64,000 nt of DNA from Flavobacteriaceae bacterium (GTDB taxonomy: Bacteria > Bacteroidota > Bacteroidia > Flavobacteriales > Flavobacteriaceae): the NCBI GenBank assembly GCA_965221765.1, contig OZ244911.1:567100-631099 (forward strand), in the 5' to 3' direction. Of the stretch, positions 3,009-46,972 are shown one piece after another. Position numbers and translations under genes: made by a program. The notes beneath the pieces were generated by a model. It was given only the letters and a program-made list of their open reading frames with translations. It was not told the DNA's origin and searched no databases. How positions within the stretch are numbered: the first letter of the stretch is position 1; each line of letters begins with the position of its first letter.

Positions 3009-5447
3009 ATGTTTGTCATAAAAAGAGGTGGGCGGAAAGAAGCCGTCATGCTAGATAAAATTACTGCGCGGGTAGCTCAGTTGTGTTATGGTTTAAGTGA
3101 TATCGTTGAGCCAGTACGTGTGACTTTAAAAGTCATCGAGGGAATGTATGATGGGGTTACCACCTCAGAACTAGACAATTTAGCTGCTGAAATCGCTGCT
3201 ACTCTAGCCACAACGCATCCAGATTATGCCCTTTTAGCTGCCCGAATTGCTGTTTCTAACCTCCATAAAAACACAGAAAAGTCATTTTCCAAAACCATGG
3301 AGTCCCTCTATTCGTATGTCAATCCTAAAACCAATAAAAAAGCGCCACTACTTTCGGATGAAGTCTATAAAATCATTGAAAATAATGCTGAAAAACTAGA
3401 TTCTCATATTATCACTAGTCGAGATTATGACTATGATTATTTCGGGTTTAAAACCCTAGAGCGATCCTATCTACTGAGAATTAATAATCAAGTGGTAGAA
3501 CGGCCACAACACATGCTCATGAGAGTTAGTGTAGGGATACACTTTGATGATATTGAGGCCGTTTTGGAAACTTATGAAATGATGTCCAAACGCTATTTTA
3601 CTCATGCAACACCGACTTTATTCAATTCTGGCACTCCAAAACCTCAAATGTCTTCTTGTTTTTTATTGACCATGCAAGACGATAGTATAGAAGGCATCTA
3701 CAACACACTAAAACAAACTGCGAAAATTTCTCAATCTGCTGGAGGAATTGGCTTATCCGTTCACAACATCAGGGCTACTGGTTCCTATATTGCTGGAACC
3801 AATGGCACCTCTAATGGAATTGTTCCTATGCTCCGTGTCTTTAATGATACCGCAAGGTATGTTGATCAGGGGGGGGGGAAACGAAAAGGATCTTTTGCTA
3901 TTTATATCGAGCCCTGGCATGCAGATATTTTAGAATTTCTTGACTTAAAAAAGAATCATGGAAAAGAAGAAATGCGTGCGCGAGATTTATTTTATGCCAT
4001 GTGGGTGCCTGATTTATTTATGAAAAGAGTGGAAAATGATGAGAAATGGACCTTGATGTGCCCCAATGAGTGTCCTAGTCTTTATGATATCCATGGAGAA
4101 AAATTTGAAAAGCTTTATGAGCATTATGAATCTGAAAATAAAGGTCGAAAGCAAATTGATGCTCGAAAATTATGGTTTAAAATTCTAGAATCTCAAATCG
4201 AAACAGGGACGCCTTATATGCTCTATAAAGATCATGCCAATAGAAAATCAAATCAAAAGAACTTAGGAACTATTCGTTCTTCGAACTTATGCGCCGAAAT
4301 CATAGAGTACACTTCAAAAGATGAAATAGCTGTCTGTAATTTAGCATCCATCGCTTTGCCAATGTATGTGACTGAACATGGAGAATTTGACCATGACGAA
4401 TTATACAAAGTCACTAGATTGATTACGCGGAACCTCAATCGAGTCATCGATAGAAACTATTATCCCGTCATTGAAGCCAAAAATTCCAATATTAGACATC
4501 GGCCCATTGGGATTGGGGTCCAAGGTCTTGCCGATACCTTCATCAAGCTACGTTATCCTTTTACTTCTGATGAAGCTCAAAAGTTAAATAAAGATATTTT
4601 TGAAACCATTTATTTTGCTGCCGTCACGGCCTCTTATGAAGAAGCTCTTAAGGATGGCCCCTATCAATCATTTAAAGGATCCCCTATTTCAAAAGGGGAA
4701 TTTCAATATAATTTATGGGGATTAACAGATGAGGATATGAGTGGTCGCTGGGATTGGGCGTATCTTCGTAAAAAAGTGGTGAAGCATGGTGTTCGAAATT
4801 CATTATTATTATCCCCAATGCCCACAGCTTCTACATCTCAAATCCTTGGAAACAATGAGTGTATCGAACCTTATACCACCAACATGTACGCTAGAAGAGT
4901 GATTTCTGGTGAATTTGTTGTGGTCAATAAACATTTATTAAAAGATTTGGTTGATATGGGATTATGGAACGAAGATTTAAAACAAGAATTGATGCGATCC
5001 AATGGATCCATACAGCATATTGAAGGGATTCCAAATGATTTAAAAGAGTTGTACCGAACCGTTTGGGAGTTAAAAATGAAAGACATCATCGATATGGCTA
5101 GACATCGAGGTTATTTTATTGATCAAAGCCAATCATTAAATCTCTTCATGGAAGATCCCACCGAAAAGAAATTGACTTCAATGCATTTTTATGCTTGGCG
5201 CTCAGGACTTAAAACTGGCATGTATTATTTGCGTACCAAAGCGGCTGTTGACCCAACCAAATTCACCATTGATATCACCAAAAAGCAAGTAGAAAAAGTA
5301 AAAGTGGCAGAAACGACGGTCAAGCCAAAAACTGACGCGACCAAGCAAAATGTCCCCACTGAACCCATTAATCCAGAAGAGCTGAGAAGTTTAATCGACA
5401 CTAGTCGTGGAGGAGACCAAGATGATTGCGAAATGTGCGGCAGTTAA
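3009..5447 (+). CDS. nrdA: Ribonucleoside-diphosphate reductase, class Ia, alpha (R1) subunit
   Basis: N-terminal ATP-cone ([16 protein letters not shown]), active-site [26 protein letters not shown], and a C-terminal redox Cys pair (CEMCGS). 812 aa. Confidence 0.95.
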
Positions 5448-7255: not shown

Positions 7256-7473
7256 TATTTAACTCATCATTTCATGAATTTTATTACTTGCCATGTTCAA
7301 CGATCTAGTTCCCATTATTCTTTAGTTACTCGCTTTCTCGAGATTTGACTTTCCGCTTGTCTTTACCCATAATTTATCTCCGAATTTTATAGATAATTGA
7401 CGCTATAACATTGAAACTAGATATTATTTTAAAACCGTAGAATTACAAATTAAATTTATTTATAATAAATTAT

Positions 7474-8885
7474 AGAGACCTTTGAATAATGCAAAATCAA
7501 AAAAAATGGGGTGTGATGGGGAAATTATTTTTTCTTTTCAGCCATTGAGTCTCTCATTCGATGTGATTTTCTTCCAAAAAATCACGCTATTTTTCTGATT
7601 TTGGCCTCTTTGGCTCCTTTTTCCCCTCATGGTTGAGCCGAATACGGCTTTGAGAACTTCTTTTTCGATCATCTCCCTTTTTAAGTTGGCATGAGAGCCA
7701 TCATACTCGGTGATCTCTTTCAATGCTAGGCCATCGACTCCAAAATAGGTTGATGATGGACTTTTTCCAGTCCCTTGAGTCGGGTCACTTGACCCTAGAA
7801 CCAGCGAGCCAAACCACCAACGGTCTGTTCCACCACCCAAGGTTCTTTACTGATGGGGTTGTTTCGTTCTTTCTGTGGCTCGGTCAAGGGCTTGTGACCA
7901 TAGCCCTTTTCCATCACTAAGGATGCACTCCCCATGGCCTCTAAGAGCTGGGCATTTTCTTTTGATGGGTCCCCTTTATCGGCCAAGACTCGTTGTCGTT
8001 CTTCGACCCAAAGGCCTTCCATCAAAGGCTGGAGACCTCTGGACGGTCCTGTTCATTGGCAGCCACCGTATGCACCCCCCCCCCTAAAATCAAGCCTTTT
8101 TCGGTCGTGGCCATGGGCCGTTTATACCCATCGTACGTCTTTTTTCTTTTTTTAAACCAACGGGCTTCATGGTCGGCGTTGGGACGGTCTTCCTGTTTTT
8201 CTTCATCATAACTCTGTTCAGCTTGAAGTTCTGACTCTTCACGCTGGTCTTCTTTTGGGTCTTGAGTCATTTTTTTGGGTTGACTTTTGGGGGTGAAGGG
8301 ACCGGTGGTGATGCAGGCATCCACCACCGCCCTGCCTTGAATGATCACGGCCTTTTGGGTGAGTTGTCCATGGACTTGCTCCATGATCTTTTGATAGCGC
8401 TTTTTGGCCGTCAACGCCGAACGAAAGCCAGACCGCCTGCTGTAATCGGGGACGGCATCTTCCCTATCTAAACCACAAAAAGCCGTGAAACGGATGCGGT
8501 CTTTAATGAACTCTTGGGTTCGAACATCCCAGAGGTGGAACCCGACAGAGAGGAGTGGCCTATTCAACAAAATCATCGGATGATCAGCCTTTTGGCCTCG
8601 TTGTTTTTTGCCCAATGTATCGTTTTCAACCCATAAAGCCTCCAGGGGCTCCCAATCGATCAGGTCATGGACTTGATTGAACAACGGTGGGGTCGTTGTG
8701 CGACTCCGCCCTTGATGGAGATTCAAAAAACGCATGGGGTTGGATTCATACGATTTGAAGTGATTCATCACGCGTACCATAGACCAAAAAAAAATGATAA
8801 AAACCAATGGTCAAATAAAAAAAAGAGATTTCGACCCAAACCCTTTATCTTAGCAAAAAACCGAAATTTTAGGGCAAAGGTCTCT
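7474..8885 (-). mobile_element. IS5-family insertion sequence with a decayed transposase, compositionally foreign (GC-rich)
   Basis: An 11-bp inverted repeat, AGAGACCTTTG at 7474..7484 and CAAAGGTCTCT at 8875..8885, brackets the transposase fragments. TAT is present immediately outside both ends, a possible 3-bp target duplication. The interior is clearly more GC-rich than the flanks. Confidence 0.55.
7538..8807 (-). pseudogene. IS5-family (DUF772 + DDE) transposase, split over three frames
   Basis: 8022..8807 has an N-terminal DUF772-like part (IRFTAFCGLDREDAVPDYSRRSGFRSAL) and the start of the DDE domain (ILGGGVHTVAANEQD). 7795..8025 continues with VLADKGDPSKENAQLLEAMG...KPLTEPQKERNNPISKEPWVVEQTVGGLARWF. 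The C-terminal end is in a third frame (7538..7840). Confidence 0.65.
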
Positions 8886-19004: not shown

Positions 19005-20581
19005 TTGAAAATCCCCATAATTGATCTTTTTGCTGGACCTGGAGGTTTGGGTGAGGGATTTTCCAAATTTGAGCATGAAGGTAATGGCGGTTTCGATGTT
19101 GCATTATCTATTGAAAATGAATCGAATGCTCACAAAACATTAGAACTAAGAAGTTTTTTTCGAAAATTCACTTCTAATCAAGTTCCAAAAGAGTACTACT
19201 CCATCATGCAAGAAAAAGATTTGAAAAAAAGAAGTCAACTAAGACAATCCCTATTTGAAAAATACCCTCAACAAGCTCAAAAAGCTAAGCTCGAGGCTTG
19301 GCAGACAACTTTAGGACAAACCACAATAAAAGAAGTGGATCAAAGAGTGCGTGAAGTATTAGCAGGAAAAGAAAATTGGGTTTTAATTGGAGGGCCTCCC
19401 TGTCAAGCATACTCATTGGCTGCTAGAGGACGACTAAATCCTAAAACAATTGAAGCCGATGAAAGATTGCATCTCTACAAAGAATTTGTAAGAATTGTTG
19501 CGGTGTACAGTCCTTCTGTTTTCCTAATGGAAAATGTCAAAGGGTTATTGTCATCGAAATCAAGAGGAGAAAGAATCTTTCCTAAAATCCTTTCTTATTT
19601 AGAATCTCCAAAGTTACTTTTTAATGTAGGACGCTATTGCTATAAATTGTACTCGTTATGTCAAGAGCAAGAAGATAAAAATAACGTTCATTCTAAATAT
19701 CTCATTAAATCTGAGAATTTTGGTATACCACAAAAAAGACACAGAGTGTTTGTATTGGGAATAAGAGAAGATATTAGCATGAAACCTCGTAATTTAGTGC
19801 AGTCTAAAACGACTGTTAGCGTGTCTGATGTAATTGCTGATTTGCCGATGATAAGAGCTAGTATAAATCGTTCTCTTGTGGTGGATAAGAATAGTTTTGA
19901 TTCAAAAAGAAGACAATACAAAAAAGAAGAAGATAGTTTTCAAAATTGGTTCAAAATAATGAGCACACACTATAAGGATATTAGCGATTACTTGCATATG
20001 GGTAATATTAATAAATTTGCCCCCCCCCATTAAATTCTGGTGCAGAATTTGTAAAAGGTCATACTCCTTCTAAGCTCAATCCCCTTTGTGATTGGTATCG
20101 TGATGAGAACATAAAAGGAGTTTCAAATCACGAGTCGAGATCTCACCTTGTTCAAGATTTAAAACGATATTTATTCTCGGCATTATGGGCCAAAAAACAC
20201 AAAAAGTCGCCAACCCTTTCAGATTATAAAAACACATGCGAGGATTTACTTCCCCACCATAAAAATGCTACATCTGGAAAGTTTTCAGATCGTTTTCGAG
20301 TTCAACTTGAAAATGAACCGGCTTTTACCATAACTAGTCATATTTCTGTGGATGGCCATTACTACATCCATTATGACCCTTTACAATGCCGAAGCTTTAC
20401 GGTCAGAGAAGCTGCGAGAATACAAACCTTCCCTGATAATTACTTGTTCTGTGGAAGCAGAACAGCACAATACAAACAAATCGGTAATGCTGTTCCTCCT
20501 CTACTAGCAAAACAAATAGCCGCAATTGTTTTCAACATATTAAGGCCTATTGGTAGTGATACGAATCAAGAAGAGACTTAA
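19005..20581 (+). pseudogene. dcm: DNA (cytosine-5)-methyltransferase, interrupted by a frameshift inside a C9 tract; possibly phase-variable rather than dead
   Basis: Frame A (19005..20033) has motif I DLFAGPGGLGEGF, motif IV GGPPCQAYS, motif VI ENVKGL and motif VIII QKRHRVFVLG. Frame B is open from 20015 to 20581 and has RSFTVREAARIQTFPDNY and QIGNAVPPLLA (motifs IX/X). The frames switch within C9 at 20020..20028. One extra C gives a continuous 525-aa ORF. TTG start. Confidence 0.85.
20020..20028 (+). repeat. C9 homopolymer at the frame break of the methyltransferase gene
   Basis: Reads aaatttgCCCCCCCCCattaa. The stop codon TAA follows 2 nt downstream in the 5' frame. Confidence 0.9.
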
Positions 20582-20596
20582 AATAACAATGTTAAG

Positions 20597-22072
20597 ATGA
20601 AACATCTCAAAGATTTGGACTATAACGATACACCACCAAATGCTGCAACAATGATTAATTCATTTAGAAGTTTCGGTTATGATTTAAAAACAGCAATAGC
20701 AGATGTAGTTGATAACAGTATTTCGGCATTGGCAAAAAACATATGGATTGATTACAAGTGGAAAGGGGGTAGTTCATGGGTTACCATTACAGATGATGGT
20801 TATGGAATGGATGGAAAAACATTAATTGAAGCCATGAGACCAGGTAGTAAAAACCCTCTTGATGAACGCGATGAAAAAGACTTGGGACGCTTTGGTCTTG
20901 GATTGAAAACATCTTCTTTTTCACAATGCAAATGCTTAACGGTTGTCGCTAAAAAACTCGGATATAATCTAATCAAACGACATTGGGATTTGGATTATGT
21001 TAATGACTCAGGAATATGGCGAATACACGATTATTTATCTGAAGATTATTTCACTCATCGACTTCAAAAGCTTGAAAGTGGAACAACAGTCATATGGGAG
21101 AAAATGGATCTGCTTTTAGGAGGATTAAGCATTAAAACTGAGAATGAAACCGCAATGAAGGCTTTTCTAAAAGAATTTGAAGAGGTTGAAAACCATCTCA
21201 GTTTAGTATTTCATCGCTATATCGATAGAAAGAAGCTAAATATTTGGATTAATGATCACAAGATAAAGGCATGGGATCCATTTATGAAAGAGGCTGACGG
21301 AACACAGAAAATTGCAGAAGAAAAATTAGATAACAGGCAAATACAGATTAGATGTTATGTGATTCCTCATAGTTCCAAAATAAGGGAAGAAGATTATAAG
21401 GAAACAAGAATAAATCAATGGTATGATTTGCAGGGGTTTTATATCTACAGAAATAATCGGCTTTTACTTTATGGAGATTGGTTAAAACTCTTCCCTAAAA
21501 AAGAATATTTTAAAAATGCTCGAATTCTTGTTGATATCCCAAACACCTTGGATAGTCATTGGAAAATTGATATCAAAAAAGCAAAAGCAACTCCACCAGT
21601 AACAGTTCGAAGTGATTTAAAAAGATTGGGGCTATTGACTCGGAAGCATGCTGCTAAAGTCCATCAGTTTAGAGAGTTCATCCCCCCTTATAGACCTCAT
21701 TTAAAGTTCCAATCCGTATGGCATGCCATTAGAAATAGGGACGGCATCATGCAATACAAGATTAATACAAGGCACACTATAATCGAAAACCTATTGAATA
21801 GGAACCAAATAAGCAAACGTGATTTTATAAAAGTGTTGTATCTCGTGGCACAAACCATACCCATTGAATCTATCATTCAATCTTATGATGAATATCCAAA
21901 TCATCATGATTGTATTCTTCACAAAGAATTAGAGCTTAAGACAATTGAATTTGCTAAAGATCTTTTTGAAACCTTGCTTTCTAGGGGGGAAACAAAAGAA
22001 AAAGCGAAACAAGAGATTTTAAGACTTGAACCATTCAACAACTATCCTCAACTAGAAAAGTACTTGGTGTGA
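20597..22072 (+). CDS. GHKL-superfamily ATPase (HATPase_c_3 / prokaryotic MORC-like)
   Basis: Bergerat-fold motifs in order: N-box DVVDNSISA, G1 box TDDGYGMD, G2 box GRFGLGLKTSSF. 491 aa. The start is 15 nt after the dcm stop. Confidence 0.8.
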   Translation: MKHLKDLDYNDTPPNAATMINSFRSFGYDLKTAIADVVDNSISALAKNIWIDYKWKGGSSWVTITDDGYGMDGKTLIEAMRPGSKNPLDERDEKDLGRFGLGLKTSSFSQCKCLTVVAKKLGYNLIKRHWDLDYVNDSGIWRIHDYLSEDYFTHRLQKLESGTTVIWEKMDLLLGGLSIKTENETAMKAFLKEFEEVENHLSLVFHRYIDRKKLNIWINDHKIKAWDPFMKEADGTQKIAEEKLDNRQIQIRCYVIPHSSKIREEDYKETRINQWYDLQGFYIYRNNRLLLYGDWLKLFPKKEYFKNARILVDIPNTLDSHWKIDIKKAKATPPVTVRSDLKRLGLLTRKHAAKVHQFREFIPPYRPHLKFQSVWHAIRNRDGIMQYKINTRHTIIENLLNRNQISKRDFIKVLYLVAQTIPIESIIQSYDEYPNHHDCILHKELELKTIEFAKDLFETLLSRGETKEKAKQEILRLEPFNNYPQLEKYLV

Positions 22073-24849
22073 TGACCTCCGATTACCATAAAGCTATCAG
22101 TATATGCCTCACAATTTTGGAAGGTCCTTCAAGTAGCCCATCCTATGAAAAAATAAAAAGTACCGCTACAGATCCATTAATCCTAAAAAAATATCCAAAT
22201 GTTGATTCAAATGAACTTGTGGCCGAACTACAGAGTATTTTTAAAATTGAATACTTTGATTCAAAAGAATTAGTAAGACGAGATATTAAACCTTGGATTA
22301 GAGAAATGAAATCTTCGATTGAGTGGGAGTTATGGAATCGATATACAAAACATCTCAAAAATGAGAATCCAACTTTCCCAATCCACAAACTTGATGATTA
22401 TACCGATAGAATTTTAGATAAATGTATCAATCCCAAAGAGAAAGGCCCTTGGGATTCTAGAGGAATGGTTGTTGGAAATGTTCAATCCGGAAAAACCGCA
22501 AATTATATCGGTCTCATAAATAAAGCAACTGATGCGGGTTATAAAATGATTATCGTGATTGCAGGGGTTCAAAATACTCTTAGAGCTCAAACTCAACTTC
22601 GAATTGACCAAGGTTATATTGGAAGGGATAGTGCGGAGTATATAGAAAAACGCAGAAGAAAAGTCATTGGAGTCGGAAAATTTACAGCTAAAAAAGTTAT
22701 TTATTCCTACACTTCTTCCGTTTCAAATGGGGACTTCAATAAAAATATAGCAATGAGATTGAATGTCCCAATTCATGGTGAAAGCCCGACCGTCGTTGTC
22801 ATTAAGAAAAACAAATCCATTCTTGAAAATTTAATTCTTTGGCTTGAAGGATTTGTTCAAGCCAATGAGCATGTTGATCCGAAAATAGCAGACGTTCCTT
22901 TATTGGTCATCGACGATGAAGCTGACAATGCATCCGTTAATTCAGGGACACAGTTGGATGTGAAGACGATAAATCGCTTGATACGAACACTTTTGAATTT
23001 ATTTACCCAAAGTTGCTACATAGGTTATACTGCTACCCCCTATGCGAACTTATTTATCCCTTCAGATTGGAGTAATGATCTCAGAACAAATATCAATGGA
23101 AGTAACTTACTAGTTGGGGAAGATTTATTTCCTCGTGATTTCATCATTAACATTCCCGCTCCTTCAAACCATATTGGAGGCCCTCAATTGTTTGGATTGA
23201 GACATACGCATCTAGGTGAAGATTCTGAAGGATTAAATTTAATCCGTACGGTAAATGATAGTAGCCCACACTTTCCACAAAAAATTAATAAGGAGAATGA
23301 AAAAAACCTCCCCAATGAACTTCCATTATCACTTAAAGAAGCGATACAAACTTTTATTCTGACGTGTGCCATTAGACGTGTGAGAAATCAAAAAGAAAGT
23401 CACAATTCAATGCTTATCCATGTCTCACTTCGTGTTCAATGGATTGATAGAATATCTTTCTTAGTCAATGAAACGGTTCGAGATTATGTTCGACAGATCA
23501 AGTCAAAACAAGGTGGCCTTTTACGAAAAATGAAATGTTTATACGAACAAGATTTTATCAAAACCACTGAGTCTGTAATAGAAAACATGAGCTATGAGGA
23601 CAAAAGAATTAAAAAACATAACTGGGCTCAAGTACAGCAAGAATTATATCCTGCTGCATCCAAAATTGATGTGAGAGCCGTTCATGGAGAAAAGAGAATT
23701 AAAAATTTAGAATATGATGGGGTACAAGAAATCAATTATCGCGACTATGAAAAAGGGCTGTCTATCATTACAGTTGGTGGAAATAAACTCTCAAGGGGCA
23801 TCACTTTGGAGGGACTCTCGGTGAGTTATTTCTTGAGGACAAGTCGAATGTATGATTCCTTGATGCAAATGGGGAGATGGTTTGGGTATCGACCTGGATA
23901 TGTTGATTTATGTCGCCTTTATACTACCGATACTTTGGCAAATTGGTTTCGCCATATTACTCTAGCTACTGAGGAAATGAAAAACGATTTTGATGAAATG
24001 GCTTTAAACAATAAAAGTCCAAAAGATTTTCAACTTAAAGTGAAAAAACATCCAGGGATGCTAAGCATCACCTCCATTTCAAAGATGAGAGGGCATGAAA
24101 CTTTAAAAGTTGGTTTTTCGGGTAAAACAATTCAAACTCATGAATTTTTAAATTCTGCTAAAATGGTTGAAGCCAATTATGAGGTATTTAAAGATTTTAT
24201 TTCCAATTTAAATACCCCCGAAACAAAAAAAACAAAAAGTGGAGCAGTCAATGCATTGCTTTGGAGGGATGTAAGTGTGGACTTAATTCAAAAGTTTTTA
24301 AATAAATACCAATCACCATTAACCCTCAGAAAAAAACAACTAAGTGATTACATACAAAAACAAAACAAAAATGGCAATCTAAAATCCTGGCCAGTGGCGT
24401 TAATCTTAACTTCAAAAAAACAAGCAATGTTTAAAAAGAAAAATAAACTTTTCTCAACTCAAAAAGTTTTATTTGAATGGAATGGCGGTGAAGAAAATGG
24501 TGGAATTCCATATCGAAAATTGTGTAGAAGTAACGGCAAGTTATCTGTTAAAGGGAATAAAAACGCCATTTTAGGGCCTAATGACCGAAAGATTGATCTA
24601 TACGTTGATGCTAAAAAAGAAAGCCAAATGACCGAAATAAGAAAAAGATTAAAACAACCACTACTTGCCATTTTACCAATTGACTCTCGAATCAGCGAAA
24701 ACCTCAACTCGAAAATTCCAATCATCGGTTTTGGACTGATTTTTCCTCAACTAGAAGATGAAGAAGTTGTGGAATATGCGGCTAGGCCTTTTGAAGATTA
24801 CGATAACAACCTTCAAGAAGATGACGATAGAGCTGAATATGAAAATTAA
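22069..24849 (+). CDS. Z1-domain protein (SF2 helicase-like ATPase with a C-terminal Z1 domain)
   Basis: Walker A GNVQSGKTANY, Walker B/DEAD-like LLVIDDEADNAS, and a C-terminal Z1-type block GGNKLSRGITLEGLSVSYFLRTSRMYDSLMQMGRWFGYRPGY. The start (GTG 22069 or ATG 22072) overlaps the upstream stop codon. Confidence 0.8.
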   Translation: MMTSDYHKAISICLTILEGPSSSPSYEKIKSTATDPLILKKYPNVDSNELVAELQSIFKIEYFDSKELVRRDIKPWIREMKSSIEWELWNRYTKHLKNENPTFPIHKLDDYTDRILDKCINPKEKGPWDSRGMVVGNVQSGKTANYIGLINKATDAGYKMIIVIAGVQNTLRAQTQLRIDQGYIGRDSAEYIEKRRRKVIGVGKFTAKKVIYSYTSSVSNGDFNKNIAMRLNVPIHGESPTVVVIKKNKSILENLILWLEGFVQANEHVDPKIADVPLLVIDDEADNASVNSGTQLDVKTINRLIRTLLNLFTQSCYIGYTATPYANLFIPSDWSNDLRTNINGSNLLVGEDLFPRDFIINIPAPSNHIGGPQLFGLRHTHLGEDSEGLNLIRTVNDSSPHFPQKINKENEKNLPNELPLSLKEAIQTFILTCAIRRVRNQKESHNSMLIHVSLRVQWIDRISFLVNETVRDYVRQIKSKQGGLLRKMKCLYEQDFIKTTESVIENMSYEDKRIKKHNWAQVQQELYPAASKIDVRAVHGEKRIKNLEYDGVQEINYRDYEKGLSIITVGGNKLSRGITLEGLSVSYFLRTSRMYDSLMQMGRWFGYRPGYVDLCRLYTTDTLANWFRHITLATEEMKNDFDEMALNNKSPKDFQLKVKKHPGMLSITSISKMRGHETLKVGFSGKTIQTHEFLNSAKMVEANYEVFKDFISNLNTPETKKTKSGAVNALLWRDVSVDLIQKFLNKYQSPLTLRKKQLSDYIQKQNKNGNLKSWPVALILTSKKQAMFKKKNKLFSTQKVLFEWNGGEENGGIPYRKLCRSNGKLSVKGNKNAILGPNDRKIDLYVDAKKESQMTEIRKRLKQPLLAILPIDSRISENLNSKIPIIGFGLIFPQLEDEEVVEYAARPFEDYDNNLQEDDDRAEYEN

Positions 24850-25852
24850 TCTCAATGACATTTGGTCTCGACTAGAATCTCAGACCGATAAAAATGTGCC
24901 AAAACAGCATGTAAAATCAGTTGGACAAATGCAATGTTTTATCGGTTTTGTTGGTCATACCAATAGTAAACTGTTTCAATGTGACATTCCGAAAGAAGTT
25001 CAAAGTGAAGCCGACAATCAGAGAAAATTTAGAGGAGTGGATATGTACACCATATCCAAACATGATTCTAAGCAAAGAAGTTTTATTATTCTTTTAGCTG
25101 AAGAAGCTCTAGAAGGAGTTTTTACACTTTTTATCGAAGATTTACTCAAAAGACTTGATTCAGTTGGAGATGATGAAAGTAAGGGATTTGTTGCTATAAA
25201 TAAGAGAATCGACTATTGGCAACGGTTATTTGAAAAAGTGCCTAATGGACTACTGTCTAGAGAAAAGCAAAGAGGTCTTTATGGAGAGTTATATGTCTTA
25301 AAAACATTGCTCAATGAAGGAAAAAATCCTGAAAAAGCAATCAAAAGCTGGGTTGGGGCTGAAGGATTAAGACAAGATTTTTTATTTGAAAATAACGCTT
25401 TAGAAATTAAGACTCAATTGATAGCTAGCACATCAATATCCATATCCAATGAATTTCAACTCGACTACACCGTGTTAGAAAATCTCTATTTGTCTGTTAT
25501 CCTTCTCAATGAGTCCAAGGGAAATGAAAATACGATTTATCAAATCATCTATGAAATTCAAGAACTATTAGTGCATGATTTTGAGTTGATGGATGAGTTT
25601 AAACAAAAACTTGCGTTTTTGGGAATTACAGAAAAAACAGCGTTTAATCATTATAATCAAACAAATTTCTCAGTAAAACAAACAACTTACTATAAAATCG
25701 ATGATGGATTTCCTTTGCTTATTAATCCCCTCATTAACAATGATGCAATCTATAGTGTAAGATACAAAATACATAATAGTAGCTGTGCTCAATTCAAAAT
25801 AGATAAAGACCTAGCATTGGCATTTCTTGATAATTATAAATCAGTACAATGA
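24839..25852 (+). CDS. PD-(D/E)XK-motif protein (DUF4420-like predicted nuclease)
   Basis: GLYGELYVLK ... RQDFLFENNALEIKTQ matches an E ... D ... ExK restriction-endonuclease-fold core. The preferred start is MKINLND at 24839, an 11-nt overlap with the Z1 gene. The track ORF starts at 24758 and would overlap by 92 nt. Confidence 0.6.
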   Translation: MKINLNDIWSRLESQTDKNVPKQHVKSVGQMQCFIGFVGHTNSKLFQCDIPKEVQSEADNQRKFRGVDMYTISKHDSKQRSFIILLAEEALEGVFTLFIEDLLKRLDSVGDDESKGFVAINKRIDYWQRLFEKVPNGLLSREKQRGLYGELYVLKTLLNEGKNPEKAIKSWVGAEGLRQDFLFENNALEIKTQLIASTSISISNEFQLDYTVLENLYLSVILLNESKGNENTIYQIIYEIQELLVHDFELMDEFKQKLAFLGITEKTAFNHYNQTNFSVKQTTYYKIDDGFPLLINPLINNDAIYSVRYKIHNSSCAQFKIDKDLALAFLDNYKSVQ

Positions 25853-28266
25853 AGCATATCGATTTCGAACTCGCTAAGTTTCAAAAAGAAATACACCACG
25901 AAGTGAATTCACGGGCTTCTTCTGCCGAAGAGGGAGCGACTAAAGAAGGGGTTTTTTCAGAATATATTTTGGAATTTCTGAGTGAAGCTGAGGAAACGAG
26001 TGCAACGAGAATTTGTTACTACGAAAGAGAAAATAGATGGGAAAACATAGAATGTAAAATCAACGGATATGCTGTTGAAGAGGGCTTTGATGGGAAGGCT
26101 TACGATGGTGTGGGGTACGAAACCATAGATTTATTTATTACTTATTACAAGGAAAGTTTAGAGCCTTTTCATTTACTTAAACCTGAATTTGAAAACTTGA
26201 TTAAATGGCCTTCTTGTTTTCTTGGAGATTCCTTAAGAGGACATTTGACCGATGAAATAGAAGAATCAAATGAAGCTTATGGACTATCCAAATTAATTCG
26301 AGATTCTCGTAAAGAACTCTCACGCGCAAATATCTTTATCCTTTCTAATGGAATTATTAGACATGATCCGCCAACAAATTTCGCAATTAAGGGATTTGAA
26401 GATTTAAATATCATTTTTCACGTTTGGGATATTGAGCGTTTGCTACGACTTTCGCAATCAAAATACAACCGAGAGCCTATAGAAATAGATTTTTTAAAGG
26501 ATATGCAAGTGAAGATTCCTTGTCTCCAAATGCCTTTAAAAAATGATTTATATGAATGTTATTTGGCAATTATGACAGGCAGTGTTTTGTCTAATCTATA
26601 TCACAATTACGGATCAAGATTGCTTGAAAGCAATGTAAGAGCTTTTTTACAACAAAGAGGAAAAATCAATCGAGGAATACGAGACACCATTTTACGCGAG
26701 CCAGAAATGTTTTTAACTTATAATAATGGTTTAGCAACTAGTGCTCAAGAGGTTAAAACAGAAAAAGGGGATAATGGTCAACTATACATCACTAGAATAA
26801 AAGATTTTCAAATAGTCAACGGCGGGCAAACGACAGCTTCTCTTTTTTATACCTATAAGAATTACAAGGATAAGGCCGACTTATCTAAAGTGCTTGTGCA
26901 ATTAAAACTCACGGTCATTAAAGATGAAGAGAAGAAAAATGAGATGGTCCCCAAAATAGCAAGATACGCCAATAGTCAAAATAAAGTTTCTGAACTAGAC
27001 CTCTCTTCAAACAATCCGTTTCTTCAGCGGCTTGAGGAGTTGTCTAAGACTACATATGCTCAAAATACTGATGATCCAAACAAACTGACCCTTTGGTTTT
27101 TTGAAAGAGTTCGAGGCCAATATCAAGAAGAGCTCAATAAGCGCCCCACAAGAAGTACTGAAAATGCTTTTAAAATGAAATTTCCTAGACATCAAATCAT
27201 CATTAAATCCGAGGTTGCCAAGTTTATGAATATTTGGAAACTTTATCCCTATGAAGTTTCGAGAGGGAGTCAAAAAAATTACATAACATTCATGAAAGGA
27301 GTTGAAAAGGAATTTTCAAGCAGAAAAAAACCTGGACGTGTTTATTGGGAAGATTTAGTTGCCAACGCGATTATATTCAAAACAGCAGATAAATTATTTG
27401 GAAGGAAAAATAAAAATCCAATTGGAGATACATTAATCAAGTCATATACTGTTACGTATACGTTGTCTTTTTTACATCATCTAACAAATAATTTGATAGA
27501 TCTTGAATTGATATGGAAAAAACAAACTCTTGAAGAAGATTTTCAAGAAGAGATTAAAAAAGGATTGAAATACGTATATGACTTCTTTGAGTCATTGAAT
27601 GCGCCATTAGTTTCTGAAGCTGCAAAAAGGAAGGAGACATGGAATAAACTAATCAAAATAATCGATGGTCATGGTCATCCATTTGATATGCGCGTGCTTA
27701 GTAAATATTTTACTACCAAAGAAAAGAAAATACAAAGAAATGATTTAGATAAAAACCATTCAGTCAAGCCCAAGAGTTTTGATAACTTAGAAACAATTTA
27801 CTCCCTAGGAACTAAATTTTGGGATGGCTTAGGCACTTTTAATGTTCGTGAGAAATATTTATCAGATTTCAAAGAAAACATAGTGAAAAGTATTTCTGAA
27901 AAATATAATTCCCGAAAGAGTTTGACGCCGACTGAAATAAGACATGGGATAAATATTATCAACACATTAAATAAAAAAAACATAGATTTTGAAAGTATTA
28001 GAGATTTAAGCAAAATTGAAAATGACCAAGTAATTGATCTTTCTAAGATTTACTATAAGTTGTTTTTAATCTCTGATGCCGAATGGGAAGATAAAATAGA
28101 ACTTGGAATGCAAACACAAAAACTAAATGATAATGAAATCAGCACCATGAAGGCCGTTCAATTGAAATTAAAGAGAGAAGGTTCTAAAGAAGTAGTCATT
28201 GACTTTGAACGATTGCAGATTGTATATGATTCCCTGCAAAAATTAGAAAGATATAGAAAAGTATAG
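25849..28266 (+). CDS. AIPR (abortive-infection phage-resistance-like) family protein
   Basis: Central block NVRAFLQQRGKINRGIRDTILREPEMFLTYNNGLATSA ... QIVNGGQTTASL is typical of AIPR proteins as I remember them. 805 aa. ATGA overlap with the upstream gene. Confidence 0.7.
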   Translation: MKHIDFELAKFQKEIHHEVNSRASSAEEGATKEGVFSEYILEFLSEAEETSATRICYYERENRWENIECKINGYAVEEGFDGKAYDGVGYETIDLFITYYKESLEPFHLLKPEFENLIKWPSCFLGDSLRGHLTDEIEESNEAYGLSKLIRDSRKELSRANIFILSNGIIRHDPPTNFAIKGFEDLNIIFHVWDIERLLRLSQSKYNREPIEIDFLKDMQVKIPCLQMPLKNDLYECYLAIMTGSVLSNLYHNYGSRLLESNVRAFLQQRGKINRGIRDTILREPEMFLTYNNGLATSAQEVKTEKGDNGQLYITRIKDFQIVNGGQTTASLFYTYKNYKDKADLSKVLVQLKLTVIKDEEKKNEMVPKIARYANSQNKVSELDLSSNNPFLQRLEELSKTTYAQNTDDPNKLTLWFFERVRGQYQEELNKRPTRSTENAFKMKFPRHQIIIKSEVAKFMNIWKLYPYEVSRGSQKNYITFMKGVEKEFSSRKKPGRVYWEDLVANAIIFKTADKLFGRKNKNPIGDTLIKSYTVTYTLSFLHHLTNNLIDLELIWKKQTLEEDFQEEIKKGLKYVYDFFESLNAPLVSEAAKRKETWNKLIKIIDGHGHPFDMRVLSKYFTTKEKKIQRNDLDKNHSVKPKSFDNLETIYSLGTKFWDGLGTFNVREKYLSDFKENIVKSISEKYNSRKSLTPTEIRHGINIINTLNKKNIDFESIRDLSKIENDQVIDLSKIYYKLFLISDAEWEDKIELGMQTQKLNDNEISTMKAVQLKLKREGSKEVVIDFERLQIVYDSLQKLERYRKV

Positions 28267-28323
28267 TTGGTCTTTGGTTTAGGCTTCTTTGTATAAGGGG
28301 GGGGGTAAAAGAAACATAACGAG

Positions 28324-38110: not shown

Positions 38111-38545
38111 ATGTTTTATCAAAGTTTTTTGTTTGCACAACAGATTATCACTTATTTGTTAATTGGATTACTTGGGCTTTGTATCCTTCTAGGAACTCTA
38201 TTTTTTTATAAAAATAAAAACCCTTCAAAATATTATTTTTCAATCGTTCGATATTCTCTAATATTAGCATACTTACATGCCATCTTATTAACAATCCATT
38301 ACTTTTTCTCCCCCTATTATACGCTTTGGAAACAACTAGAATTATCTGAAATTTTCAATTCCTCAGTTCAACGATTTATACTTATAGAACAACCCCTAGT
38401 AAATTTTCTAGCAGTTTTTTTAGTTACCATTGGTTATACTTTACAATTAAGGCAACTAAATCCTAAAAAATTATTTTTTCGAATCATTATTTTTTATGGA
38501 TTAAGTATTCTTTGTTTTTCATTTGGGGCTTCTATTCAATTTTGA
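38111..38545 (+). CDS. Hypothetical four-TM membrane protein
   Basis: 144-aa ORF made of hydrophobic helices. No family recognised. Confidence 0.4.
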   Translation: MFYQSFLFAQQIITYLLIGLLGLCILLGTLFFYKNKNPSKYYFSIVRYSLILAYLHAILLTIHYFFSPYYTLWKQLELSEIFNSSVQRFILIEQPLVNFLAVFLVTIGYTLQLRQLNPKKLFFRIIIFYGLSILCFSFGASIQF

Positions 38546-38792
38546 TTTAGGAATTTGTTGTAGTCCTCCGATGATAGCAGTCTAAACCCCACAATGGAAT
38601 AACATGGCATTTCTAAATTTTTAAAGCTTTAAAAACCTCTATGTTCATAAAAATTGCCTATGTAGGCCCCTAAACTGGTTCCACACCTTTCGAGATATAA
38701 CCAAAAATATTTACCTTTGATCCTTCCATGACAACCATTACGATATGTTTCATTAAGCGTCTCCTTTTAAACCCAGGGTTTCCCCATAAAAT

Positions 38793-38801
38793 GGGGGGGG
38801 G
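38793..38801 (+). repeat. G9 homopolymer beginning with the G of the ATG start codon
   Basis: Reads ataaaatGGGGGGGGGctgtagcc. The current reading is MGGGCSPRWPMPTLFLR followed by a stop. Confidence 0.9.
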
Positions 38802-40104
38802 CTGTAGCCCTCGGTGGCCTATGCCTACTCTTTTCCTGCGGTAAGACCGATTCGTCCGAACCCACTCCTAGTCTGCCGTCGACTCCCCCCACCTATACCA
38901 TCACCACCACTGCCACCATAGGCGGCACCATCACCCCCACCCAAACCGTCCCCCATGGCCAAACCATCACCGTGACCCTCACCCTACAACCCCATTATCA
39001 ACTCCAGCAGTGGCAAAGCGATTGTGGGTCGTTCGACCCACAACAAAACACCCTAGAACTCCTAGTCCAAAAAGACTGTACCATCACCGCCCGACTCACC
39101 CTCGATACCCCTTTGTATCTCGATACCAATGGGCTCACCATCCGAAGCCGACCCCAAGGAGAACGATTCATCGGACAAACCAAGCTCCTGGCCCACCCAG
39201 AACACCCAGAGCCCCTAGCCATCCGCATCGTGGATCAAACCGCCCTACGAACCCTCATCCAACAACAAGACTGGTCGGCCCTCGAAACCATCAATACCAC
39301 CTTTGTTACCAATCTGCGCAATCTCTTCCGGAGCCAAGACACCTTTAATGCCGATATCCGCTCGTGGGATGTCAGCAACGTCACCACCATGCAAAAACTC
39401 TTCCAGGGAGCCACCGCTTTCCAACAAGATCTCAGCCAGTGGACCGTCTCACAAGTGACCGATTGCCATCAGTTTGCTCAACAGAGTGCCTTCACCCCCG
39501 ATGGGTGGCCTCGCTTTACCGCTTGTGATTTACAAGAAATCGAAGAAACCAGAGATTGCCATGGCATCCCCACCCCCATTGATCAACCCTGTCCTAGTCG
39601 CCCACAGCCCCAGACCAAAGAGTGCAACCGACAGCAGATTCCCGTGGATGAAGATTGTCTAGCGAGACCCGCCACCAAAACCTGTTGGGATGGTTCGGTG
39701 ATTCCTCGCTCTCAAAATTGTCCGATGCAAACCAAAGATTGCCATGGCAATCAAATCCCCGCTGGCGATACTTGTCCGCCCTTGCTAAAAAAAGCTACCA
39801 ATGGGGTCACGGTCATCATCAATCCCGTGCTGCAAAACCCTGCCCAATACGTGGGACGAAAAGCTACCCTCGATGGAACCCAGTATACCATCGTGAATAA
39901 TGCCTCGCTCAAAGCATGGGCAGCGGCTGATCATACCAATGCCGTGTGTACCACCCTGGTGACCGATATGACAAATCTATTTTCTAATAAAACTAACTTT
40001 AATCAAGATATTGGGGATTGGGATGTCAGTAATGTCACCGATATGACTGGTATGTTCACTGATGCTAGAGCCTTTAATCGAGATATTGGGGATTGGGATA
40101 CGGG

Positions 40105-40270
40105 TAGCGTGACTAGTATGGTTGGCATGTTTCAATTGACTAGAGCCTTCAATCGAGATATTAGTGCTTGGGATGTGAGTAATGTCAAAAATATGGATGG
40201 CATGTTTCAATTGACTAGAGCCTTCAATCGAGATATTAGTGCTTGGGATGTGAGTAGCGTGACTAGTATG
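40105..40270 (+). repeat. Near-identical 75-bp-period tandem duplication inside the DUF285 repeat region
   Basis: The 58-nt string ggcatgtttcaattgactagagccttcaatcgagatattagtgcttgggatgtgagta occurs identically at 40124..40181 and 40199..40256. agcgtgactagtatg also recurs (about 40107 and 40257). Confidence 0.85.
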
Positions 40271-40995
40271 AAGCTTATGTTTTTTCGAGCCACGTCTTTC
40301 AATCAAGATATCAGTCGCTGGATCGTCAGTGGCGTTACCAGTTGCAATAATATTTTTCTTAATTCAGTCTTAATTCCATCACGCCGTCCTTCGTTTAATA
40401 ATTGCGAACCATAATTGATGAATCAATAGACCATGATTTTTAAGCCTTTTTGAAATATTTTTATTCGATAAGTGGAAAGCATATGTCGGATGGGCTAAAG
40501 CGTATGTAATCCATGATTGATTCCACTTAGATTAAGTACTTCATCTATCGACACCGTGGGACAAATAAAAATCACGAATCATCCTAAAAAATGGCCTTTT
40601 GCTCTCTTAGAAGAATCCAGAGAGCAGAACCGAAAAACAAAACCTCATCCTCCAAGCGATTCAAAAAACCAATCGATAAGTCAGCAAAGCTTGGAAATGT
40701 CGTGGCTATTTTCAATACCAAAGGTACCCAATGTGCCAAAGATTGGGTTTTGGTTTGGTGACCCGATGGCTAGGTGGGCAAGATATTTTTAACCCATCGA
40801 CACTATCATCACGGCACTATCCTTTAAACAATAGAACCACAGAGTATAGCGGGTCCATGGAAAAATCCAACAAATCAAAACAGTCGCAAGGAGCTATCGA
40901 ACGTTTGAAAACCTTTAATCGGCTGTCCTATTTTTCTCTAGTCGGTTCAATCTCAATCTACCCATATGGGAATAGAATCCAAGATTTTATCCTCT

Positions 40996-46404: not shown

Positions 46405-46776
46405 ATGAGAGCTGGAGGAACAAACGAAGCTTTTTTAGCGTACTTCATCACCTTGTTTAGTTGGCAGTTTCTAACTCCTGTATTCACCGTTTTGGCTTCT
46501 ACGGCAACAATAACTATAGTCATCATCACCATTGTAAGAGGGGGTAGAAGAGCTAAACGTGAAATAGCTCAAGAGAAAAGAGAGATAGCTCAAGAGAAAA
46601 GAGAGATAGCTCAAGAGAAAAGAGAGATAGCTCAAGAATTGAGAGAAAAAGAGATGCATGAAGAACAAAAGGCTATAATCAAAGCCCAAGAGAATAGAAA
46701 GGAAGAAAAACATCGACTTGAAATGAAAATTCTCGAACAAAAACTAAAGGCGAATGCTAAGAATAACAAAGGGTGA
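46405..46776 (+). CDS. Small N-terminally membrane-anchored protein with a K/E-rich tail carrying (KREIAQE)x4
   Basis: 123 aa. Hydrophobic N-terminus (FLAYFITLFSWQFLTPVFTVLASTATITIVIITIV), then a charged helical tail. It resembles 62177..62494 in architecture and in the KREKAQEKR...EEKH string. Confidence 0.5.
   Translation: MRAGGTNEAFLAYFITLFSWQFLTPVFTVLASTATITIVIITIVRGGRRAKREIAQEKREIAQEKREIAQEKREIAQELREKEMHEEQKAIIKAQENRKEEKHRLEMKILEQKLKANAKNNKG
46558..46641 (+). repeat. 21-bp tandem repeat x4 (agagagatagctcaagagaaa; first and last copies imperfect), in frame
   Basis: Read directly from the sequence. Encodes KREIAQE heptads. Confidence 0.85.
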
Positions 46777-46972
46777 GTGAGGTAAGAAAAAAAGATGATG
46801 TGGATTAGTTTATACTCTATTCTTTCCAAACCGAAACACCCCCCCCCCACAAATCTTTAATCCCTCCATCGCTAGATGATACTAGTAATAACTCTCATGG
46901 GTGTTTGCTCTATATAGGCTATGTTCTACTCATGTCCCGTCATGATTTTTTACTTTCGTATTTTGATGGTAA

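What the first reader, a model, noticed from the sequence alone, without database searches (positions are those of the whole stretch)
38768..38975. ATG followed by G9: surface lipoprotein whose signal peptide is uncoupled by a homopolymer (phase-variation candidate)
Seen in the sequence: ATG 38791 runs straight into nine Gs (38793..38801). In the present state it encodes MGGGCSPRWPMPTLFLR followed by a stop. The long ORF frame is open from 38771. It encodes ...AVALGGLCLLFSCGKTDSSEPTP, a hydrophobic core plus lipobox, but has no ATG, GTG or TTG before GTG 38972, which lies after the lipobox. Removing one G gives MGGAVALGGLCLLFSCGKT..., a complete lipoprotein precursor of about 540 aa.

Established knowledge: poly-G/C tracts at the 5' end of surface-protein genes are classic contingency loci.

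Inference: this is ON/OFF switching of a BspA/DUF285-type surface protein.
Basis: partly seen in the sequence, partly recalled or inferred. Interest (0 to 1): 0.65.

Follow-up and report, generated by a model that had tools for sequence, protein, structure and literature searches.

The report
Poly-G switch in flavobacterial surface lipoprotein
A run of nine Gs right after the start codon keeps a repeat-rich surface lipoprotein gene of an uncultured flavobacterium out of frame, which is most likely a classical slippage ON/OFF switch, a known mechanism seen here in an unusual host and gene family.

Summary
ATG 38791 runs into G9 (38793-38801). The ATG frame stops after 17 codons. The 548-codon frame (38771-40414) has no ATG/GTG/TTG before GTG 38972. 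G8 or G11 gives a 540/541-aa DUF285/PARCEL lipoprotein precursor.

Three additions:
- A second ATG (38728) lies in the same frame and is conserved in a paralog type.
- The gene is a GC3-rich, mosaic member of a paralog family. Most 5' ends in that family carry G/C tracts, in the signal peptide, the promoter spacer or the mature N-terminus.
- The window holds six G/C runs of 9-10 nt, where about 0.16 nine-base matches are expected by chance. One of them splits a defence-system DNA methylase.

A 99.9%-identical sister assembly also has G9 here. No A/T homopolymer differs between the two assemblies, but a neighbouring tract does (C10 versus C9). Paralogs exist in in-frame states.

Best reading: a slipped-strand contingency locus that is OFF in the consensus. 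Switching at this tract was not observed. The sister copy and several paralogs carry further frameshifts, so a pseudogene or silent cassette is a serious rival. [quoted passage not shown]

The parts
38712..38719 (+). Candidate Bacteroidota -7 promoter box, TACCTTTG (TAnnTTTG)
   Evidence: This is the only TAnnTTTG in 38501-38800. In the window the motif sits 17-31 nt upstream of six gene starts. Here it lies 8 nt before ATG 38728 and 71 nt before ATG 38791. This is weak evidence, because the motif occurs about once per 2.4 kb per strand.
38728..38730 (+). Upstream ATG in the same frame as ATG 38791, a possible true start (MTTITICFIKRLLLNPGFPHK...)
   Evidence: Frame translation. It is homologous to the ATGACGACAAACCAT start of the L082/L086 paralog type.
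38791..38793 (+). ATG abutting the tract, in an A-rich context (ataaaATG)
   Evidence: Paralog P0128 was called from the equivalent MGG start, in frame.
38793..38801 (+). G9 homopolymer, the proposed slippage switch. G8/G11 is in frame; G9/G10/G12 is out of frame.
   Evidence: The sister assembly L001 also has G9.
38791..38844 (+). OFF-state short ORF, MGGGCSPRWPMPTLFLR plus stop (38 aa if started at 38728)
38802..38839 (+). Hydrophobic core and lipobox (AVALGGLCLLFS-C). The Cys codon TGC is at 38837-38839.
   Evidence: Paralogs carry the same ...SCGK / SCGG / SCAE motif. DNA homology with L082/L086 is near-perfect from the Cys codon onward.
38771..40414 (+). Long open frame of 548 codons encoding the DUF285/PARCEL surface lipoprotein. 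GC3 is 0.52, against 0.30 in host genes.
38895..39095 (+). Flg_new_2 (divergent InlB B-repeat) domain
   Evidence: Pfam PF18998, E = 3.3e-10, residues 35-101 of the 540-aa product.
39546..39777 (+). Cys-rich repeats (..TKDCHGxQIP..DxCP..). Their copy number varies among paralogs.
   Evidence: Direct repeat D3. The paralog proteins show expansion of this repeat (P0005; P0002).
39990..40339 (+). Tandem 75-nt (25-aa) PARCEL/DUF285 repeats
   Evidence: Repeat families D1 and D2. Pfam DUF285. TIGR02167 scores 73 bits against a cut-off of 30.

Best explanation
The G9 run is a real, slippage-prone simple sequence repeat in the signal-peptide coding region of a surface lipoprotein gene (DUF285/PARCEL, BspA-like). 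It acts as a translational ON/OFF switch.

How it works:
- Slipped-strand mispairing during replication changes the tract length.
- With G8 or G11, ATG 38791 (or the in-frame ATG 38728) is joined to the hydrophobic core, the lipobox Cys (38837-39) and the 540-aa body. A prolipoprotein is then made, exported, lipidated at the Cys and probably displayed on the cell surface.
- With G9, the state in both available assemblies, or with G10, translation stops after 17 or 5 codons. The only other start, GTG 38972, lies downstream of the lipobox, so no exportable protein is made (OFF).

The gene belongs to a recombining paralog family. Its members carry similar tracts in the signal peptide, in the -33/-7 promoter spacer or in the mature N-terminus. 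This would allow combinatorial expression and mosaic sequence variation.

Shown directly: the sequence anatomy, the frame logic, the tract over-representation, the recurrence in paralogs, and length differences elsewhere in the family and at a neighbouring tract.

Inferred: hypermutability, reversibility, selection for switching, lipidation and surface exposure.
For: - Anatomy and frame logic.
- Tract excess: six G/C tracts of 9-10 nt in a 35% GC window. A 9-G word matches 9 times against 0.16 expected, and no 8-nt runs occur.
- Assembly reliability: a sister assembly is about 99.9% identical outside the gene. It shows no length difference in any of 91 A/T runs of 6 nt or more. It has the same G9 here, but C9 instead of C10 at 46839. 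G10 in nrdA, G10 in a transposase segment and C9 in L084 are all in frame.
- Recurrence in the family: L082 and L086 have G9 at the homologous place between the n- and h-regions, and their ON state would be one base longer. P0129, from the window's own genome, reads through that tract in frame (KKRGGVFLTL). P0128 starts MGGVFLTLGLLFLMGSC, which is the ATG+G-tract design in frame. In L084 a G9 fills the spacer between TTG and TATCTTTG, where L085 has G4.
- Hot spot: the gene is 96% identical between strains whose flanks are about 99.9% identical, with repeat indels and mosaic segments shared with paralogs.
- A second contingency-type target: a C9 tract splits the C5 methylase of an Mza defence system.
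Against: - The focal tract is G9 in both assemblies, so no variation was seen at this locus.
- The sister strain's copy has an additional frameshift not located at a long tract. It is shared with L082 and L086, so that copy is dead whatever the tract length.
- P0128 and P0129 are in frame at the tract yet end at 154 and 169 aa.
- Tracts also lie in frame in the essential nrdA gene, between convergent genes, and in an intergenic region with no obvious role. Tracts in this genome may therefore arise by mutation bias without being selected as switches.
- From ATG 38791 the ON-state signal peptide has no positively charged n-region.
- The post-Cys motif KTD only partly fits the K-(D/E)2 export signal (PMC5080379).
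- No reads, transcripts or proteins were available.
Confidence: 0.55

Rival explanations
1. Pseudogene or silent cassette. The tract is real, but the gene was inactivated by a slippage event and is not maintained as a reversible switch. It survives as a decaying copy or as a donor sequence for recombination with expressed paralogs. This is similar to what was proposed for silent drp genes in M. agalactiae.
For: - Two strains share the same OFF length.
- The sister copy and the L082 and L086 paralogs carry identical extra frameshifts.
- P0128 and P0129 are truncated although in frame at the tract.
- All three window-genome gene calls of this subtype start at the internal GTG (P0001, P0003, P0125).
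- Mosaic exchange among copies.
- Nouvel et al. judged silent drp genes to be a sequence reservoir rather than phase-variable (PMC2824730).
Against: - In the window the 548-codon frame is fully open downstream of the tract, so a single 1-nt change restores an intact precursor.
- The tract is conserved at the same place in two diverged leader types, which is hard to explain without selection or recurrent expansion.
- In-frame states exist in paralogs.
Confidence: 0.27
2. Consensus or assembly error at a long homopolymer. The true tract is G8 (or G11) and the gene is simply ON.
For: - The related contigs are low-coverage long-read metagenome assemblies. Their names carry 9x, 11x and 2x, and the naming looks like metaMDBG output (my own knowledge).
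- Long G/C homopolymers are the main residual error class of such data (established knowledge).
- The one homopolymer difference between the two assemblies is at a G/C tract.
Against: - Two different consensus sequences both give G9.
- None of 91 A/T runs of 6 nt or more differ between them.
- Tracts where the frame must be kept (nrdA G10, L084 C9, transposase G10) are in frame.
- L082 and the 2x contig L086 agree on G9.
Confidence: 0.08
3. The gene is expressed in the G9 state by non-standard decoding. One route is initiation at the in-frame ATA 38786, giving MKWGGAVALGGLCLLFSC, a textbook n-region. Another is transcriptional slippage or a +1 ribosomal frameshift on the G run.
For: ATA 38786 is in the long frame, just upstream of the tract, and would supply a Lys in the n-region. 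Homopolymers can cause RNA polymerase slippage (established knowledge, mainly for A/T runs).
Against: - ATA is a very poor initiator.
- Slippage on G/C runs is little documented.
- The L082-type leader has no equivalent in-frame near-cognate start: K-R-G-G follows directly after a TAA.
- Nothing here tests this reading directly.
Confidence: 0.05

Closest known systems
[quoted passage not shown] 2010, PMC2996958; Nouvel et al. 2010, PMC2824730)
   Same: - Same protein family (DUF285/PARCEL 25-aa repeats).
- Lipoprotein precursor with a homopolymer in the 5' coding region whose length sets the frame.
- Scattered paralogs, many of them silent or broken.
- Strain-variable loci with signs of horizontal origin.
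   Different: - The host is a Gram-negative flavobacterium, not a wall-less mollicute.
- The protein has an N-terminal InlB B-repeat-like domain and Cys-rich repeats.
- Tracts also occur in the Bacteroidota-type promoter spacer.
- The mycoplasma cases are themselves mostly in silico proposals.
Neisseria pilC, and Campylobacter jejuni / Helicobacter poly-G contingency genes (own knowledge; reviews PMC8355987 and PMC6321876 appeared)
   Same: - G/C runs of 8-11 nt inside the 5' coding region (in the signal-peptide region for pilC) switch surface proteins ON or OFF by frameshift.
- Restriction-modification genes are also targets.
- Run lengths are bimodal, with a mode near 9-10.
   Different: - Different phylum, and the ecology here is uncultured and unknown.
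- The tract density here may be higher (6 per 64 kb).
- The tracts include an in-frame G10 in the essential nrdA.
- The mismatch-repair status of this organism is unknown.
Promoter-spacer homopolymer switches (Neisseria porA/opc, Bordetella fim, Mycoplasma hyorhinis vlp; own knowledge)
   Same: In paralog L084 a G9 lies between the -33-like TTG and the TAnnTTTG -7 box. The homologous L085 promoter has G4.
   Different: This applies to paralogs, not to the focal gene. The promoter type is the Bacteroidota sigma-A consensus. No effect on transcription was tested.
BspA of Tannerella forsythia and BspA-like LRR surface proteins
   Same: Database homologs are named BspA family leucine-rich repeat surface protein. 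They are surface-adhesin-like repeat proteins of Bacteroidota.
   Different: Membership in the BspA name rests on NCBI naming of homologs only. I found no report of SSR control of BspA. The domain make-up differs.

Membership tests
DUF285 / PARCEL repeat surface protein | Match to Pfam PF03382 and TIGR02167 above the curated cut-offs | tested here: met
   PF03382: E = 2.2e-78, 260 bits against a cut-off of 25, in 3 stretches. TIGR02167: 73 bits against a cut-off of 30. The Mbov_0838 lipoprotein model scores only 159 bits against a cut-off of 500, so the protein is not a member of that subfamily.
DUF285 / PARCEL repeat surface protein | Tandem 25-residue (75-nt) repeats | tested here: met
   Four to six in-register 75-nt copies at 39990-40339.
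Bacterial lipoprotein precursor (signal peptidase II substrate) | Hydrophobic core followed by a lipobox ending in Cys | tested here: met
   AVALGGLCLLFS-C. The Cys aligns with ..FFSCGK / ..MGSCGK / ..FFSCAE of the paralogs, and many homologs have ..SC[GSK]... This rests on pattern only; no predictor was available.
Bacterial lipoprotein precursor (signal peptidase II substrate) | Positively charged n-region after the start codon | tested here: inconclusive
   From ATG 38791 the n-region is MGG with no charge. From ATG 38728 it contains K, R, H and K. The real start is unknown.
Bacteroidota surface-exposed lipoprotein (LES) | K-(D/E)2 or Q-A-(D/E)2 just after the lipidated Cys (PMC5080379) | tested here: inconclusive
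   The window protein has C-G-K-T-D-S-S-E, a partial match. Paralog P0011 has C-G-K-D-D, a full match.
SSR contingency (phase-variable) locus | Homopolymer of at least 8 G/C in the 5' coding region or promoter, over-represented in the genome | tested here: met
   G9 at 38793-38801. A 9-G word matches 9 times (six tracts) against 0.16 expected.
SSR contingency (phase-variable) locus | A tract length change toggles between a full-length and a truncated product | tested here: met
   In silico, G8 and G11 give 540/541 aa, and other lengths give at most 18 aa.
SSR contingency (phase-variable) locus | Length polymorphism of the tract among strains or within a population | tested here: not met
   The focal tract is G9 in both assemblies. 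Polymorphism was seen only elsewhere: C10 versus C9 at 46839, and a 1-nt difference in the tract region inferred between L082/L086 and P0129. The sample is two strains, so the test is weak.
SSR contingency (phase-variable) locus | High-frequency, reversible switching of expression | not testable with these tools
   This needs reads, amplicons or cultures.

The most novel reading that the evidence does not exclude
This uncultured flavobacterium (a contig of about 2.75 Mb, 35% GC) runs a large poly-G/C phasome. Extrapolated from the window, that would be on the order of 100 or more tracts. It would control a GC3-rich, horizontally acquired and recombining PARCEL/DUF285 lipoprotein family through three tract placements: promoter spacer, signal peptide and mature N-terminus. 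It would also control a defence-system methylase (MzaA position), while tolerating a G10 inside the essential nrdA. That would make SSR-based contingency a major strategy in a member of the Bacteroidota, a phylum known mainly for invertase-driven phase variation.
Probability: 0.35. Interest if true: 0.6.

Novelty: new member of a known kind. Interest (0 to 1): 0.42.

Why it matters
If confirmed, this would extend homopolymer-based contingency switching of surface lipoproteins to an uncultured member of the Flavobacteriaceae. It would link three things in one organism: a horizontally spread repeat-protein family (PARCEL/DUF285), paralog recombination, and poly-G switches.

It also has a practical consequence for annotation. 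Every gene call of this subtype began at an internal GTG and lost the signal peptide. Metagenome annotation therefore systematically mis-describes such genes.

The co-occurring tract in a defence methylase suggests phase-variable phage defence in the same genome.

Tried and rejected
- Exact-protein look-ups failed for the 480-aa ORF, P0001, P0003, P0011 and P0125, apparently because the window's own contig is not indexed. Other paralogs on that genome could therefore not be read as DNA.
- The GTDB genome scan with UvrC found only relatives of 63% identity or less (Flavobacteriaceae). No syntenic orthologue was available.
- Two JGI metagenome scans, one with a locus-specific DNA pattern and one with the N-terminal protein, found nothing.
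- A look-up of the adjacent 144-aa protein returned only the sister contig already in hand.
- The ten tracts share no flanking motif, so they are not footprints of one mobile element.
- No flanking direct or inverted repeats delimit the GC-rich gene.
- My guess that the region upstream of the gene (38546-38790, minus strand) is a GNAT remnant was not supported by tblastn.
- Literature searches for poly-G phase variation in Flavobacteria or Bacteroidetes returned no direct report. These were not exhaustive.
- A paper checked for a HiFi homopolymer bias turned out to be irrelevant.
- The sigma-70 promoter scanner was not used, because Bacteroidota promoters differ. A TAnnTTTG count was used instead.

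Full report
**1. The observation**

The sequence at 38760-38830 reads ...ccttttaaacccagggtttccccataaaATGGGGGGGGGctgtagccctcggtggcc.... The ATG is at 38791-38793, and its G opens a run of nine Gs at 38793-38801.

The ATG frame gives MGGGCSPRWPMPTLFLR and then TAA. The long frame opens after TAA 38768-70 and runs 548 codons to 40414. It reads TQGFPIKWGGAVALGGLCLLFSCGKTDSSEPTP.... Its first ATG/GTG/TTG is GTG 38972, downstream of the lipobox Cys at 38837-39.

Editing the tract in silico shows that G8 and G11 give 540 and 541 aa, while G6, G7, G9, G10 and G12 give 4-18 aa.

I add two details. An ATG at 38728 lies in the same frame as ATG 38791 (MTTITICFIKRLLLNPGFPHKMGG...). An in-frame ATA lies at 38786 in the long frame.

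**2. Is it more than chance?**

The window is 35% GC. A 9-G word matches 9 times, in six tracts of 9-10 nt. Dinucleotide-preserving shuffles give 0.16 +/- 0.49, and none of 100 shuffles reached the observed count.

G/C run lengths are bimodal: 39 runs of 5, 8 of 6, 1 of 7, 0 of 8, 3 of 9 and 3 of 10. A/T runs follow expectation.

**3. What the gene is**

- Pfam gives DUF285 (E = 2.2e-78, three stretches) and an N-terminal Flg_new_2 / InlB B-repeat domain.
- NCBIfam gives the PARCEL repeat model above its cut-off.
- Tandem 75-nt repeats lie at 39990-40339.
- Homologs are named BspA-family LRR surface proteins or simply surface protein. Many start with a signal peptide ending ..SC[GSK](D/E)...
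- The gene is compositionally foreign: 52-60% GC in its 5' half, GC3 of 0.52 against 0.30 in host genes, and 53 of 68 Thr codons are ACC.

**4. The organism and a sister strain**

UvrC, next to the gene, is at most 63% identical to any GTDB species representative. All the best hits are Flavobacteriaceae.

The window's own protein (P0001) sits on a 2.75 Mb contig. A second assembly (ERZ25070844, contig ctg10120_11x_l, locus L001) covers window 26171-47760.

Outside the DUF285 gene the two assemblies differ by only 9 substitutions and three length differences: one single-base indel, a 21-bp tandem-repeat indel, and C10 versus C9 at 46839. None of the 91 A/T runs of 6 nt or more differ.

The focal tract is G9 in both assemblies, and so is the tract at 28297.

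The gene itself is only about 96% identical between the two. It shows a repeat indel and mosaic segments shared with paralogs. The sister copy has an extra B-repeat that ends in a frameshift (..ITPTSRPL*), identical to one found in paralogs L082 and L086.

**5. The paralog family**

The same sample holds further copies.

- **L082 and L086** are two different loci, from samples at 9x and 2x coverage. They share a leader ...ATGACGACAAACCAT...ATGGAGCCAACGCCTTTTTATAAAAAAGGGGGGGGGTATTTTTGACC.... Its G9 sits between an n-region (MEPTPFYKK) and the hydrophobic core (VFLTLSLLFLMGSC). The frame is broken there, and one more base would restore it.
- **The window-type and L082-type leaders are homologous** from about 100 nt upstream. 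They share the ATGAC..AACCAT start and the tract position. They are otherwise diverged until the Cys codon, after which they are nearly identical.
- **A search with the N-terminus** found two relevant proteins. P0129 is on the window's genome and reads MEPTPFYKKRGGVFLTLSLLFLMGSC..., the L082-type leader in frame with a tract region one base longer. P0128 is on the sister genome and starts MGGVFLTLGLLFLMGSCGKT..., an ATG+G-tract design in frame. I could not read their DNA. Both ORFs end early, at 169 and 154 aa.
- **A third leader type (L084)** has G9 inside the 21-nt spacer between TTG and TATCTTTG. The homologous L085 promoter has G4 and a 20-nt spacer, and L083 has no tract. L084 also has an in-frame C9 encoding ..VTPPLFY...
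- **P0127** reads through an equivalent promoter tract as ..FFFKGGGNYYLWKD...

Tracts are thus concentrated at the 5' ends of this family, in three placements.

**6. The other tracts in the window**

| Position | Tract | Context |
|---|---|---|
| 3869 | G10 | Encodes GGG, in frame, in the ribonucleotide reductase large subunit |
| 8075 | C10 | Encodes GGG, in frame, in a GC-rich degraded DUF772 transposase |
| 20020 | C9 | Splits a C5 DNA methylase (Pfam positions 36-213 before the tract, 196-320 after). It heads an MzaB-MzaE defence operon. |
| 28297 | G9 | Between two convergent genes |
| 46839 | C10 | Intergenic, about 125 nt upstream of a phosphoglucomutase-type gene. It differs between the strains. 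|

Two of the six tracts break contingency-type genes: a surface protein and a defence methylase. Two are kept in frame. Two are non-coding. The ten tracts I could read share no flanking motif.

**7. Mechanism**

The best-supported reading is a slipped-strand contingency switch.

- G8 or G11 joins the ATG to the lipoprotein precursor. Export, lipidation at Cys and surface display would follow. Those steps are inferred from the lipobox and from a partial match to the Bacteroidota export signal K-(D/E)2 (PMC5080379). Paralog P0011 has an exact CGKDD.
- G9 and G10 stop translation after 17 or 5 codons.
- The consensus state in both assemblies is OFF.
- Which ATG is used is open. TACCTTTG (38712-19) fits the TAnnTTTG -7 box. 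That motif sits 17-31 nt before six gene starts in the window. It lies 8 nt before ATG 38728 and 71 nt before ATG 38791, which has the better A-rich context.

**8. Rivals**

(a) *Pseudogene or silent cassette.* This is supported by the shared OFF state, by the extra frameshifts in the sister copy and in paralogs, and by the truncated P0128 and P0129. It is weakened by the fully open 548-codon frame in the window and by conservation of the tract in two diverged leaders.

(b) *Assembly error.* This is possible for low-coverage long-read data. It is unlikely given two concordant consensus sequences, no A/T-run discordance, and in-frame tracts wherever the frame must be kept.

(c) *Non-standard decoding,* by an ATA start or by slippage in transcription or translation. 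This is untested and a priori unlikely.

**9. Comparison with the known**

Roske et al. (PMC2996958) defined PARCEL (= DUF285). [quoted passage not shown] Nouvel et al. (PMC2824730) described the scattered, strain-variable drp (DUF285) family. Only 2 of its 12-13 members are expressed. It includes one poly-A frameshift pseudogene and a proposed silent reservoir.

Neisseria pilC (a poly-G in the signal-peptide region) and the Campylobacter poly-G genes are the mechanistic archetypes (own knowledge).

The present case has the same design in a different phylum. It adds promoter-spacer tracts of the Bacteroidota promoter type. My searches found no report of poly-G switching in Flavobacteria, though they were not exhaustive.

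**10. Verdict**

This is a good contingency-locus candidate embedded in a tract-rich genome and a tract-bearing paralog family, but switching at this tract is not shown and decay is a real alternative.
- It is a new member of a known kind, of moderate interest.

Noticed in passing
window 3869-3878: A G10 run encodes Gly-Gly-Gly (CAG GGG GGG GGG AAA), in frame, in the ribonucleotide reductase large subunit (812 aa, Pfam E = 4e-216). GGG is only 19% of Gly codons in host genes. A slippage-prone tract in an essential gene hints at a mutational drive toward long G runs in this genome.
   Followed up: partly
window 19005-28266 (tract at 20020-20028): A C9 run splits a C5 cytosine DNA methylase into two frames. 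The gene heads an operon whose next four proteins match MzaB, MzaC, MzaD and MzaE of PADLOC (HATPase, Z1, DUF4420, AIPR). This is a candidate phase-variable or inactivated methylase of an Mza defence system.
   Followed up: partly
window 46839-46848 and 46564: The intergenic C10 is C9 in the 99.9%-identical sister assembly. It is the only homopolymer difference in about 21 kb. Nearby, a 21-bp tandem repeat inside ORF 46405-46776 has one more copy in the sister strain.
   Followed up: partly
window 7300-8807 (minus strand): A GC-rich (about 49%) remnant of a DUF772 / IS5-like transposase. It has an in-frame G10 (GLILGGGVHTVAAN) and a separate frameshift further on. It is probably a decayed insertion sequence.
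   Followed up: partly
window 28297-28305: A G9 run lies exactly between the stop codons of two convergent genes (AIPR/MzaE ending at 28266, and a TMEM260-like gene ending at 28324). Its length is identical in the sister strain, and it has no obvious function.
   Followed up: no
window 38771-40414; L082, L084, L085, L086: The DUF285 genes are islands of high GC3 (0.52 against 0.30) with extreme ACC/CCC/ATC codon preference in a 35% GC genome. This fits horizontal origin or GC-biased gene conversion among the recombining paralogs.
   Followed up: partly
L082 2260-2275 and 2975-2990; L086 7110-7125; L001 8820-8850 (minus strand): Identical frameshifts at short C runs are shared by paralogs at different loci and in different samples. 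They are therefore inherited or spread by gene conversion rather than assembly noise.
   Followed up: partly
proteins P0012, P0018-P0020, P0022, P0057 (other Flavobacteriaceae MAGs): Homologs in unrelated MAGs are called from MPMASTPPLMYTV... or MYTVATATS..., just at or after the ..TPP(L)FYT.. site where L084 has a C9 run. They lack signal peptides. Similar tract-induced truncations may be common in this family across Flavobacteriaceae MAGs.
   Followed up: no
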